From an uncultured Candidatus Saccharibacteria bacterium (GTDB taxonomy: Bacteria > Patescibacteriota > Saccharimonadia > CAILAD01 > BJGX01), in the NCBI GenBank assembly GCA_964481235.1, contig CAYZYH010000003.1:12341-76340 (forward strand): a stretch of 64,000 nucleotides of DNA, written 5' to 3'. The translations under genes were made by a program, and so were the position numbers. Of this stretch, positions 62,264 to 62,500 are shown in pieces; positions within the stretch are counted from its first letter, which is position 1; each line of letters begins with the position of its first letter. The notes beneath the pieces are model-generated. The model saw only the letters and a program-made list of their open reading frames with translations. It ran no database searches and was not told the origin of the DNA.

Positions 62264-62457
62264 GGGGATGCTACAGCGGTTGATGAAGAAACCAACGGAC
62301 AATGTCCGCGGCCCAACTTCGATCGTGTCGGTTGTAGAGCTAGAGACATGGTTTGTCCCGTTAACAGCTGCAGCTGTTAAAAGGCCAGGGGATTCCGCGG
62401 ATCTCTCTGGAAGTACAAATCATTATCTGGTCGCAGGTTCGAATCCTGCCATCCTCC
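62264..62457 (+). ncRNA. 194-nt RNA with a tRNA-like domain (acceptor GGGGATG/CATCCTC plus T-arm GCAGG-TTCGAAT-CCTGC) ending at a terminator; family unresolved
   Basis: 5' and 3' ends pair as a 7-bp acceptor-like stem directly adjacent to a canonical T-arm; internal perfect 22-nt palindrome GTTAACAGCTGCAGCTGTTAAC and two CCGCGG sites; strong terminator 12 nt downstream. Confidence 0.45.
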
Positions 62458-62468
62458 TCGCCCTTCAG

Positions 62469-62500
62469 CCCCAATCTGTAAAATTACAGATTGGGGCTTT
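62469..62500 (+). terminator. rho-independent terminator (11-bp stem)
   Basis: ccccaatctgt-aaaatt-acagattgggg followed by CTTTTT. Confidence 0.8.

What the first reader, a model, noticed from the sequence alone, without database searches (positions are those of the whole stretch)
62264..62500. 194-nt tRNA-like-domain RNA with terminator: tmRNA-like ends but non-canonical body
GGGGATG (62264..62270) pairs with CATCCTC (62450..62456) as a 7-bp acceptor-like stem with G2-U71. It abuts a perfect T-arm GCAGG-TTCGAAT-CCTGC preceded by GGUC, close to the tmRNA 3' consensus GGACGCGGG-UUCAACU-CCCGCCAGCUCC. A strong terminator follows. But at 194 nt it is about half the usual tmRNA length, the G3-U70 AlaRS determinant is absent, and the only short frame ending in the central 22-nt palindrome hairpin would encode ..VNSCSC*, unlike any tag. 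A possible P2-like pairing exists (TGATGA/TCATTA with ACAG/CTGG). It could be a minimised or divergent tmRNA, a different tRNA-like RNA, or the truncated 3' part of a gene disrupted by insertion.
Basis: partly seen in the sequence, partly recalled or inferred. Interest (0 to 1): 0.65.

Follow-up and report, generated by a model that had tools for sequence, protein, structure and literature searches.

The report
Oversized tRNA mimic, not tmRNA
The 194-base element is a real, conserved, non-coding RNA shaped like a transfer RNA with two greatly lengthened arms; it fails every tmRNA-specific test and is the last unit of a so far undescribed string of non-decoding tRNA look-alikes in Saccharibacteria (TM7).

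Summary
A 7-bp acceptor-like stem (62264-70 / 62450-56, G2.U71) abuts a canonical T-arm (62433-49), and a strong terminator follows (62467-98).

The tmRNA reading does not hold:
- ARAGORN and Rfam find no tmRNA.
- There is no G3:U70.
- The proposed P2 pairing is broken in a relative.
- The putative tag is not conserved.

The element folds as a four-way junction: acceptor, arm I, branched arm II and T-arm. Homologues in two other Saccharibacteria lineages keep this fold: 90% of cells are paired, against 36-54% in slid controls, and 16 pairs change on both sides.

It is the 3'-terminal cassette of one unit of about 840 nt, with a single predicted promoter (61627) and a single terminator. This locus lies between murA and tig and is GC-rich (about 50% against 39% for the window). 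It holds a conserved leader matching no Rfam family, an anticodon-less tRNA-Ala mimic, an odd second tRNA-Phe-like gene, and this element. In the mimic, G3.U70 is invariant in 11 lineages.

Most likely it is a tRNA-derived, non-decoding RNA matured by tRNA-processing enzymes. Its function is unknown. I could not check whether a canonical ssrA exists elsewhere in the genome.

The parts
61627..61656 (+). Promoter-like site of the whole RNA locus (TTGACA - 18 nt - TG-TAAACT)
   Evidence: It is the only promoter-like site between murA and the terminator. Equivalent TTGACA/-10 boxes lie upstream of the homologous loci L084, L085, L087, L091, L092, L164 and L001.
61663..61970 (+). Conserved non-coding leader RNA. 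It has the 5' motif UUUGUACCU, several hairpins and a GGUG-CUGCCAA-CACC hairpin followed by GCCGGCGGGC.
   Evidence: nhmmer finds homologues in L084, L087, L091, L092 and L085. The 5' hairpins show covariation. No Rfam family matched at E<=5. The ORFs inside it are not conserved and have no Pfam match.
61971..62047 (+). Module 1: anticodon-less tRNA-Ala mimic. It has a G3.U70 acceptor stem, A73, a D-arm, a T-arm, and an 'anticodon arm' closed by a 3-nt loop.
   Evidence: (tRNA model, 17 bits). G3.U70 and C74 are invariant in 11 lineages while neighbouring acceptor pairs covary.
62048..62159 (+). Structured spacer: hairpin CCUCUUCU...AGAAGAGG, then a long hairpin CCCGC...GGUUGGUUAG...CUAACCAACC...GCGGG ending in ACCA.
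   Evidence: Homologous in L084 and L087, with compensatory changes.
62160..62232 (+). Module 2: second, atypical tRNA-Phe(GAA)-like gene. It has no G18G19, a T-loop AUCGAUA and no encoded CCA.
   Evidence: (61 bits). A canonical tRNA-Phe(GAA) with CCA lies at 23680-23752.
62264..62270 (+). Module 3 (the finding): 5' strand of the acceptor-like stem
   Evidence: 7 bp; G2.U71 invariant in 3 lineages; pairs 6 and 7 change on both sides.
62271..62337 (+). Module 3, arm I: irregular hairpin stacked directly on the acceptor stem (CUACAGC/GUUGUAG, UGAU-GAAG/CUUC-AUCG, apical CGGAC-AAU-GUCCG)
   Evidence: The AG->GA change in L084 keeps pairing with UU. L165 has a different hairpin at the same place.
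62339..62431 (+). Module 3, arm II. It has a basal helix (62339-44/62426-31), a second helix (62348-56/62415-23), hairpin A (62357-84, palindromic, UGCA loop) and hairpin B (62385-62410). The conserved single strand AAGUA lies at 62411-62415.
   Evidence: Hairpins A and B carry most of the two-sided changes.
62433..62449 (+). Module 3: T-arm GCAGG-UUCGAAU-CCUGC
   Evidence: 5 bp, 100% paired, one compensatory pair.
62450..62457 (+). Module 3: 3' acceptor strand CAUCCUC plus discriminator C. No CCA is encoded (the tail is CUCG).
62467..62503 (+). Intrinsic terminator of the locus (14-bp stem, T tract)
   Evidence: It is conserved in L084.

Best explanation
The element is a tRNA-derived, non-decoding structured RNA. 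It keeps the acceptor/T-arm 'top half' of a tRNA. The D-arm and anticodon-arm positions are occupied by a 67-nt hairpin (arm I) and a 93-nt branched arm (arm II), giving a tight four-way junction.

It is the last cassette of a single transcription unit of about 840 nt (promoter 61627, terminator 62467-98). This unit is a Saccharibacteria-specific RNA locus. Its conserved core is a leader RNA plus an anticodon-less tRNA-Ala mimic. Its 3' part is a fast-evolving array of irregular tRNA-like cassettes.

Inferred mechanism, not shown:
- The tRNA-like ends act as handles for tRNA-maturation enzymes.
- RNase P cuts at 62263/62264.
- RNase Z or exonucleases cut after C62457, because no CCA is encoded.
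- This releases a stable RNA of about 194 nt, and its expanded arms carry the specific, still unknown, activity such as binding or decoy function.

It does not decode and it is not a tmRNA.
For: What is shown:
- The acceptor stem, T-arm and terminator are present.
- The fold is more stable than shuffles.
- The same architecture occurs in L084 (Tig 94% identical) and L165 (Tig about 70%). 89.8% of cells are paired against 36-54% in slid controls, 16 pairs change on both sides against 2-4, and 0/500 shuffles reach the observed values.
- G.U pairs in the L084 version of hairpin A show that the constraint acts on RNA, not on a DNA palindrome.
- The overlapping 98-aa ORF is broken in L084 and has no Pfam match.
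- There is one promoter-like site and one terminator for the whole locus.
- GC is 50-55% against 39% for the window.
- Neighbouring modules are tRNA-like. Related loci carry other irregular tRNA-likes at the same position, including intermediates with extended anticodon arms: L164 2842-2937 and L091 4551-4646.
- All 8 canonical tRNAs of the window encode CCA, and the three modules of this locus do not.

Precedent: polycistrons of irregular tRNAs that can be charged but are not used in translation (Mukai et al. 2017, PMC5389517).
Against: - Only three lineages carry this cassette, so the covariation statistics rest on 3 sequences and a MAFFT alignment.
- There are no expression or end-mapping data. 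Processing by RNase P or RNase Z is inferred from shape alone.
- The junction has 0/1/1 linker nucleotides and no obvious G18G19 partner for the T-loop, so a true L-shape is unproven.
- Hairpins that bridge one module to the 5' acceptor strand of the next (for example GGGAC-CAAG-GUCCC just upstream of module 2) suggest the transcript may not simply be cut into tRNA-sized pieces.
- No function can be assigned.
- Rfam models are known to miss divergent RNAs of this phylum (RNase P RNA, PMC8172020). Negative Rfam results therefore carry limited weight.
Confidence: 0.55

Rival explanations
1. The whole transcript of about 840 nt works as one large multi-domain ('ornate') RNA. The tRNA-like modules, including this one, are structural domains and are not excised. 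This would be comparable to large bacterial RNAs such as GOLLD or ROOL, which, from my own knowledge, are often found next to tRNAs.
For: - There is a single promoter and a single terminator.
- Every segment, including the leader and spacers, is structured and covaries.
- Conserved hairpins bridge adjacent modules.
- None of the modules encodes CCA.
Against: - There were no Rfam hits to GOLLD, ROOL or any other large RNA at lax thresholds.
- Module content differs greatly between close relatives. That is easier to reconcile with independent cassettes than with one integrated fold.
- The modules have complete, autonomous acceptor stems of the kind RNase P recognises.
Confidence: 0.2
2. It is a decaying relic: a tRNA pseudogene, or a scar of integrations at a tRNA gene, that is still transcribed but has no function.
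For: - The cassette is absent from many related loci (L085, L087, L091, L092, L164).
- The array is highly variable.
- Neighbouring tRNA-likes have defective anticodon loops.
Against: - Helices are maintained by two-sided changes across lineages whose Tig proteins are only about 70% identical. Pseudogenes do not keep pairing.
- High GC is kept in an AT-rich genome.
- No integrase gene or direct repeats flank it.
Confidence: 0.08
3. It is a minimised or divergent tmRNA. The acceptor and T arms would form the tRNA-like domain and GCU AGA GAC AUG ... UGU UAA would be the tag frame.
For: - The 5' GGGGAUG...GGUUGAUG loosely resembles tmRNA 5' ends, and a T-arm plus acceptor stem are present.
- A GCU codon preceded by UAG opens a 13-codon frame that ends in a hairpin.
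- The locus lies next to tig-clpP.
- No tmRNA or smpB was found in the 64-kb window.
- Rfam can miss divergent CPR RNAs.
Against: - There is no G3:U70. G2.U71 is conserved instead.
- The same transcript carries a different module with an invariant G3.U70.
- No tmRNA model hit appeared at E<=10, and ARAGORN made no call.
- The P2-like pairing is broken in L084.
- No pseudoknot was found.
- The tag is not conserved...NSCSC in the window...DYCSG in L084, and nothing corresponding in L165. The changes follow RNA pairing.
- The cassette is absent from most related loci, which is unexpected for an essential rescue RNA.
Confidence: 0.05
4. It is a functional decoding tRNA interrupted by one or two insertions or introns. 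[quoted passage not shown]
For: - Group I introns that escape RF00028 and ARAGORN are common in tRNA genes of this phylum (PMC13011429).
- With thresholds lowered to 85%, ARAGORN calls an intron-containing tRNA here.
Against: - The relaxed ARAGORN calls disagree between the window (Val, intron at position 35) and L084 (Cys, intron at position 27).
- Removing any single insertion does not leave a D-arm and an anticodon arm.
- The total insert of about 120 nt is too short for a group I core, and no Intron_gpI hit was found.
- No anticodon loop is conserved.
Confidence: 0.04

Closest known systems
Polycistrons of irregular, non-canonical tRNAs (allo-tRNA-like sequences) described from Acidobacteria metatranscriptomes (Mukai et al. 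2017, NAR; PMC5389517)
   Same: - Several tRNA-shaped genes with abnormal arms or loops are co-transcribed.
- Their anticodons are highly diverse.
- Some were charged in vitro but not used in translation.
- A regulatory or non-translational role was proposed.
   Different: - Those tRNAs have 8/4 or 9/3 acceptor/T branches, long variable arms and 7-nt anticodon loops.
- The element here has a 7/5 branch, no anticodon loop at all and two giant arms.
- It sits in a chromosomal locus with a conserved leader RNA in a different phylum, with no toxin-antitoxin genes nearby.
tmRNA (SsrA), including the reduced tRNA-like-domain-only form of jakobid mitochondria (from my own knowledge)
   Same: - Acceptor stem plus T-arm without an anticodon.
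- A 5' end starting with GGGG.
- A size larger than a tRNA.
- Presumably matured by RNase P.
   Different: - No G3:U70.
- No P2 helix, pseudoknots or conserved tag frame.
- Not detected by the tmRNA covariance models or by ARAGORN.
- The fold is a closed four-way junction rather than a three-way tRNA-like domain opening into a large loop.
- The Ala-type determinant is on another module of the same transcript.
tRNA-like processing modules at the ends of longer transcripts (MALAT1 mascRNA, mitochondrial tRNA punctuation; from my own knowledge)
   Same: A tRNA-shaped element inside a longer transcript could give RNase P and RNase Z cleavage sites and thereby define RNA ends.
   Different: - Those are eukaryotic or organellar.
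- mascRNA is tRNA-sized.
- The Rfam mascRNA model gave only a weak sub-threshold hit to one tRNA of L091 and none to this element.
Bacterial Y-RNA-like YrlA (RF02553)
   Same: It is a non-coding RNA that contains a tRNA-like domain with a T-arm.
   Different: - In YrlA the 5' and 3' ends form the Ro-binding stem and the tRNA-like part is internal. Here the ends form the acceptor stem.
- The YrlA model scored 17.9 bits against a threshold of 69.
- No rsr gene is nearby.

Membership tests
tmRNA (SsrA) | G3:U70 wobble pair in the acceptor stem (AlaRS determinant) | tested here: not met
   Pair 3:70 is G-C. The wobble is at 2:71 in all three homologues.
tmRNA (SsrA) | Match to the tmRNA covariance models (RF00023, RF01849-51) or an ARAGORN tmRNA call | tested here: not met
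   There was no hit at gathering score or at E<=10 in a 711-nt search. ARAGORN made no call at default settings. At 80% thresholds it gave only inconsistent permuted calls elsewhere in the locus.
tmRNA (SsrA) | Tag reading frame with a resume codon and a conserved, protease-targeting C-terminus | tested here: not met
   The frames are ARDMVCPVNSCSC* in the window and ARDLVCPVDYCSG* in L084. L165 has no corresponding peptide (sequence). The substitutions are compensatory in RNA hairpin A.
tmRNA (SsrA) | P2 helix joining the tRNA-like domain to the body, and at least pseudoknot PK1 | tested here: not met
   The proposed P2 (ACAG/CUGG) is broken by the L084 changes, while the alternative helices are kept. 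No pseudoknot is needed or indicated by the consensus fold.
tmRNA (SsrA) | Acceptor stem contiguous with a 5-bp T-arm and a UUCRANY loop | tested here: met
   This feature is shared with all tRNAs, so it does not discriminate.
tmRNA (SsrA) | It is the only ssrA of a genome that has smpB | not testable with these tools
   There is no SmpB homologue in the window or in any Saccharibacteria locus fetched.
Canonical (decoding) tRNA | Cloverleaf of 70-95 nt with a D-arm and a 7-nt anticodon loop; match to RF00005 | tested here: not met
   The element is 194 nt and has no anticodon loop. There was no RF00005 hit on 62264-62457 even at E<=10.
Canonical (decoding) tRNA | Encoded 3' CCA, as in all other tRNA genes of this genome | tested here: not met
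   All 8 canonical tRNAs have CCA. This element has C-CUCG.
tRNA gene with a group I intron (Patescibacteria type) | One contiguous insertion whose removal leaves a complete tRNA, and a group I core of about 200 nt or more | tested here: not met
   The relaxed ARAGORN calls are inconsistent between window and L084. The maximum insert is about 120 nt. There was no Intron_gpI hit. Caveat: divergent introns of this phylum escape RF00028 (PMC13011429).
Allo-tRNA / irregular tRNA polycistrons (Mukai 2017) | 12-bp acceptor branch in an 8/4 or 9/3 configuration | tested here: not met
   The branch here is 7/5. The resemblance is in organisation (a polycistron of irregular tRNA-likes), not in fold.
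YrlA (Y RNA-like) | Match to RF02553; Ro-binding stem formed by the RNA ends | tested here: not met
   The score was 17.9 bits against a gathering score of 69, over a region that includes the terminator.
Large ornate RNAs next to tRNAs (GOLLD, ROOL) | Match to the Rfam models | tested here: not met
   Neither family appeared in the lax searches of the window locus and of L091.

The most novel reading that the evidence does not exclude
Saccharibacteria carry a dedicated RNA operon of non-decoding tRNA mimics. Its universal member (window 61971-62047) would be an alanine-accepting tRNA that has lost its anticodon. It would therefore be charged by AlaRS through the invariant G3.U70 but excluded from decoding, and would supply Ala-tRNA for a non-ribosomal or rescue-type reaction such as cell-wall bridge synthesis, lipid aminoacylation or a tag-less tmRNA-like rescue. 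The 194-nt element and the other variable cassettes would be accessory mimics, matured by the same enzymes, that act as decoys or binding platforms.
Probability: 0.25. Interest if true: 0.8.

Novelty: new variant of a known kind. Interest (0 to 1): 0.6.

Why it matters
tRNA mimicry outside translation is known from only a few bacterial cases: tmRNA, cell-wall tRNAs, YrlA, tRNA-Other and allo-tRNAs.

This locus would add a phylum-specific, multi-module example in the ultra-small, host-dependent Saccharibacteria, whose non-coding RNAs are almost unexplored. The locus offers two directly testable objects:
- A 194-nt four-way-junction RNA with tRNA ends.
- An anticodon-less RNA that keeps the single base pair sufficient for alanylation.

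If the latter is charged, it would point to an aminoacyl-tRNA-dependent process in these bacteria that annotation has missed.

There is also a practical point. The locus produces spurious 'tRNA-Phe/His/Gly/SeC/???' calls and spurious ORFs in genome annotation, and assemblies tend to break there.

Tried and rejected
- **tmRNA.** Rfam at gathering and lax thresholds and ARAGORN at default and relaxed settings were negative or inconsistent. A three-frame scan of nine homologous loci found no recurrent tag-like peptide.
- **Intron-containing tRNA.** The relaxed ARAGORN calls are inconsistent.
- **Protein-coding.** ORFs 62262-62558, 61727-61960 and 61961-62194 are not conserved and have no Pfam match.
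- **RNase P, SRP or 6S RNA as the identity of the leader.** There were no Rfam hits. By eye it lacks the GGAAAGUCC / ACAGAA...CGGCUUA P4 motifs and the SRP GGAA/AGCA motif.
- **Phage origin.**
  - A viral contigs pattern scan for the conserved 3' part of the element gave 0 hits.
  - A looser leader pattern gave only what I judged to be noise; I did not inspect those hits.
  - blastn against 50,697 phage records matched only module 2, to generic phage tRNAs at 75-81% identity.
- **More homologues.**
  - The genome-contig scan with MurA returned mostly Actinobacteria and only one useful locus, L001.
  - The metagenome scan with Tig gave five close loci.
  - Eleven contig look-ups gave L081-L089 and L164-L169. 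Several contigs break at the locus (L166, L167, L168), and some lineages lack it between murA and tig (L093, L095, L169).
- **Canonical ssrA or smpB.** There is no SmpB homologue in the window ORFs or in any Saccharibacteria locus. ARAGORN found tmRNAs only in Streptomyces-type loci. Literature searches gave no statement on Saccharibacteria tmRNA.
- **No description of this locus.** Searches for 'tRNA-like'/'tRNA array' with Saccharibacteria/Patescibacteria returned nothing.

Full report
**Context.** The window is a chromosomal segment of a Saccharibacteria (TM7, Patescibacteria/CPR) bacterium.
- Homologues of its trigger factor are annotated as Candidatus Saccharibacteria or Saccharimonadia.
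- The best genomic match of MurA is a Saccharibacteria MAG.
- The gene order around the finding is rsmD - tRNA-Leu(UAG) - murA (60308-61612) - [non-coding locus] - small ORF - tig (62845-) - clpP - MFS - rpoB - rpoC.
- The window averages 39% GC. The stretch 61725-62470 has 47-55% GC, which is typical of structured RNA in an AT-rich genome.

**Check of the observation.**
  - Acceptor-like stem GGGGAUG/CAUCCUC (62264-70 / 62450-56; G2.U71).
  - T-arm GCAGG-UUCGAAU-CCUGC (62433-49), contiguous with the stem.
  - A 14-bp terminator with a T tract at 62467-98.
- A motif scan for a T-arm followed directly by a fully paired 7-nt acceptor found eight sites in the window. Seven are canonical tRNAs and the eighth is this element.
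- Simulated sequence gave 0.66 such sites per 64 kb. The motif by itself could therefore be chance, and the comparative evidence is what makes it real.
- The 197-nt RNA folds at -74.1 kcal/mol, z = -3.4 against shuffles.

**What the fold is.** The minimum-free-energy fold is a four-way junction:
- Acceptor stem.
- Arm I (62271-62337).
- Arm II (62339-62431), made of a basal helix, a 9-bp helix and two hairpins, A and B.
- T-arm.
- The linkers between these elements are 0, 1 and 1 nt.

**Homologues.**
- Three metagenome contigs are identical to the window across the locus.
- The cassette is also present in two other lineages:
  - L084 (9408-9601; Tig 94% identical; locus 91% identical).
  - L165 (375-553; Tig about 70% identical).
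- L165 independently folds into the same architecture, z = -5.2.
- On the three-sequence alignment the consensus structure has 54 pairs.
  - 89.8% of cells are paired, against 36-54% when partners are slid by 1-3 columns.
  - 16 pairs change on both sides, against 2-4 in the slid controls.
  - None of 500 shuffles reaches the observed values.
- In L084, hairpin A keeps pairing through G.U pairs, so the constraint acts on RNA and not on a DNA palindrome.
- Features conserved in all three sequences:
  - G2.U71.
  - The single strand GGAAGUA(G)CAAA after hairpin B.
  - The T-arm.
  - The 3' tail C-CUCG (C-CACG in L084).

**Why it is not a tmRNA.**
- ARAGORN and Rfam at gathering thresholds find nine tRNAs and no tmRNA in the window.
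- A lax Rfam search of 61850-62560 (E<=10) lists no tmRNA family, and the tRNA model does not match this element either. The best overlapping hits are terminator look-alikes and YrlA at 17.9 bits against a threshold of 69.
- The AlaRS determinant G3:U70 is absent.
Those same substitutions preserve the arm I and arm II helices.
- The candidate tag differs at its C-terminus between the window (...NSCSC*) and L084 (...DYCSG*).
- L165 has nothing corresponding to that tag. A tmRNA tag would be expected to be conserved.
- The cassette is missing from most homologous loci.
- ARAGORN at 85% thresholds calls an 'intron-containing tRNA'. The anticodon and intron position differ between the window and L084, so that reading is rejected as well.
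- The overlapping 98-aa ORF is broken in L084 and matches no Pfam family.

**The locus it belongs to.** Between murA and tig there is one promoter-like site (61627-56) and one terminator. This predicts a single transcript of about 840 nt, made up as follows:
- **(i) Leader (about 61663-61970).** It starts with the conserved motif UUUGUACCU and has covarying hairpins. It matches no Rfam family.
- **(ii) Module 1 (61971-62047).** This is a tRNA-like cloverleaf whose 'anticodon arm' is a closed hairpin.
- **(iii) Structured spacer.**
- **(iv) Module 2 (62160-62232).** This is an atypical second tRNA-Phe(GAA)-like gene.
- **(v) The finding itself.**

**Related loci.**
- Homologous loci occur in L084, L085/86, L087/88, L089, L090, L091, L092, L164, L165 and L001.
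- All of them share the leader and module 1.
- The 3' cassettes differ: ARAGORN labels them Phe, His, Gly, Asp, Val, SeC or '???'.
- The anticodon loops of these cassettes are 5-8 nt long, and several have C at position 33. Some cassettes have extended arms (L164 2842-2937, L091 4551-4646), which link normal tRNA shape to the giant arms of the finding.
- All eight canonical tRNAs of the window encode CCA, and the three modules do not.

**Module 1.** This is the most striking by-product.
- In 11 lineages, pair 3:70 is always G.U and N74 is always C.
- Pairs 2:71, 4:69, 5:68, 6:67 and 7:66 vary with compensation.
- The 11 lineages include a stand-alone 72-nt copy with an encoded ACCA in the distant locus L097.
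- From established knowledge, G3:U70 is the major and nearly sufficient identity element for AlaRS. The RNA is therefore probably alanylated.
- It has no anticodon loop: the loops are 3-6 nt, or GNRA-capped extended hairpins.
- Its D-arm is of the tRNA type, so it derives from tRNA-Ala rather than from tmRNA.

**Interpretation.**
- Shown: the finding is a conserved, structured, non-coding RNA with tRNA-type ends, embedded in a conserved RNA locus made of tRNA-derived modules.
- Inferred:
  - It is released by RNase P and RNase Z or exonucleases, as a tRNA would be.
  - It acts through its expanded arms.
- Main rival (0.2): the whole 840-nt RNA acts as one multi-domain molecule.
- Minor rivals: pseudogene relic (0.08), divergent tmRNA (0.05) and intron-bearing tRNA (0.04).
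- Closest published analogue in organisation: the polycistrons of irregular tRNAs reported from Acidobacteria. Some of those were charged but not used in translation (PMC5389517). Their folds (8/4 and 9/3 branches) differ from this one.

**Limits.**
- Only three lineages carry this cassette.
- There are no expression data.
- Rfam is known to under-detect divergent CPR RNAs (PMC8172020).
- I found no published description of this locus. The searched library does not cover all journals.

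Noticed in passing
window 61971-62047 (also L084 9114-9190, L087 3402-3478, L085 9672-9744, L091 4358-4431, L092 4545-4618, L164 2523-2597, L165 312-372, L001 13384-13453, L089 9773-9864, L097 4723-4794 minus strand): This is a tRNA-Ala-like cloverleaf without an anticodon loop. G3.U70 and C74 are invariant in 11 lineages while the other acceptor pairs covary. 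The 'anticodon arm' is a closed hairpin of variable length. The L097 copy stands alone and encodes ACCA. It is probably an alanine-accepting, non-decoding RNA.
   Followed up: partly
window 61663-61970: A conserved non-coding leader RNA starts at the motif UUUGUACCU, has covarying hairpins and a GCCAA-loop hairpin, and matches no Rfam family. It is 111-793 nt long in different lineages; the L001 version lies in a GC-rich stretch of about 1 kb.
   Followed up: partly
window 62160-62232: A second tRNA-Phe(GAA)-like gene lacks G18G19, has the T-loop AUCGAUA (A54) and has no encoded CCA. A canonical tRNA-Phe(GAA) lies at 23680-23752. A GAA-loop cassette recurs at this locus in L084, L090, L091 and L092.
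   Followed up: partly
L091 4862-4933: A well-formed tRNA (75 bits) has anticodon UCA, G73 and U1-A72. It is a potential UGA-reading (suppressor or Trp-like) tRNA in a lineage that I assume, without checking, uses the standard code. ARAGORN labels it SeC.
   Followed up: no
L085 9857-9933; L164 2842-2937; L091 4551-4646: These are tRNA-likes with an 8-nt anticodon loop (L085), a 46-nt extended anticodon arm (L164) or a long extra arm (L091). They are intermediates between normal tRNA shape and the 194-nt element.
   Followed up: no
window 62150-62164; L091 about 4510-4550; L092 about 4705-4745; L085 about 9822-9855: Conserved hairpins pair the end of one module (..GGGACCA / ..GCGACCAC) with sequence just upstream of, or within, the 5' acceptor strand of the next module. 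These alternative pairings might compete with acceptor-stem formation or with processing.
   Followed up: no
window 62450-62460 (and L084, L165 equivalents): The 3' strand and tail of the element read AUCCUCCUCG. The core CCUCC is the same as the anti-Shine-Dalgarno core of 16S rRNA and is conserved in all three homologues. This may be a coincidence of pairing with the GGGG 5' end.
   Followed up: no
L166 1, L167 1, L168 1, L165 1: Several metagenome contigs of related organisms end inside or at the edge of this RNA locus. The locus is therefore a frequent assembly break point, and L165 starts 3 nt before the leader motif.
   Followed up: no
L001 11454-11903; L091 about 3500-3947; L092 about 3643-4118; L090 1-97: In four lineages a small GreA-like ORF lies directly upstream of the RNA locus. 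In the window lineage murA is the upstream neighbour.
   Followed up: no
window 57374-58147 (+) and 58068-59519 (-): The 3' ends of a 257-aa ORF of unknown function and of the convergent purF-like gene overlap by about 80 nt.
   Followed up: no
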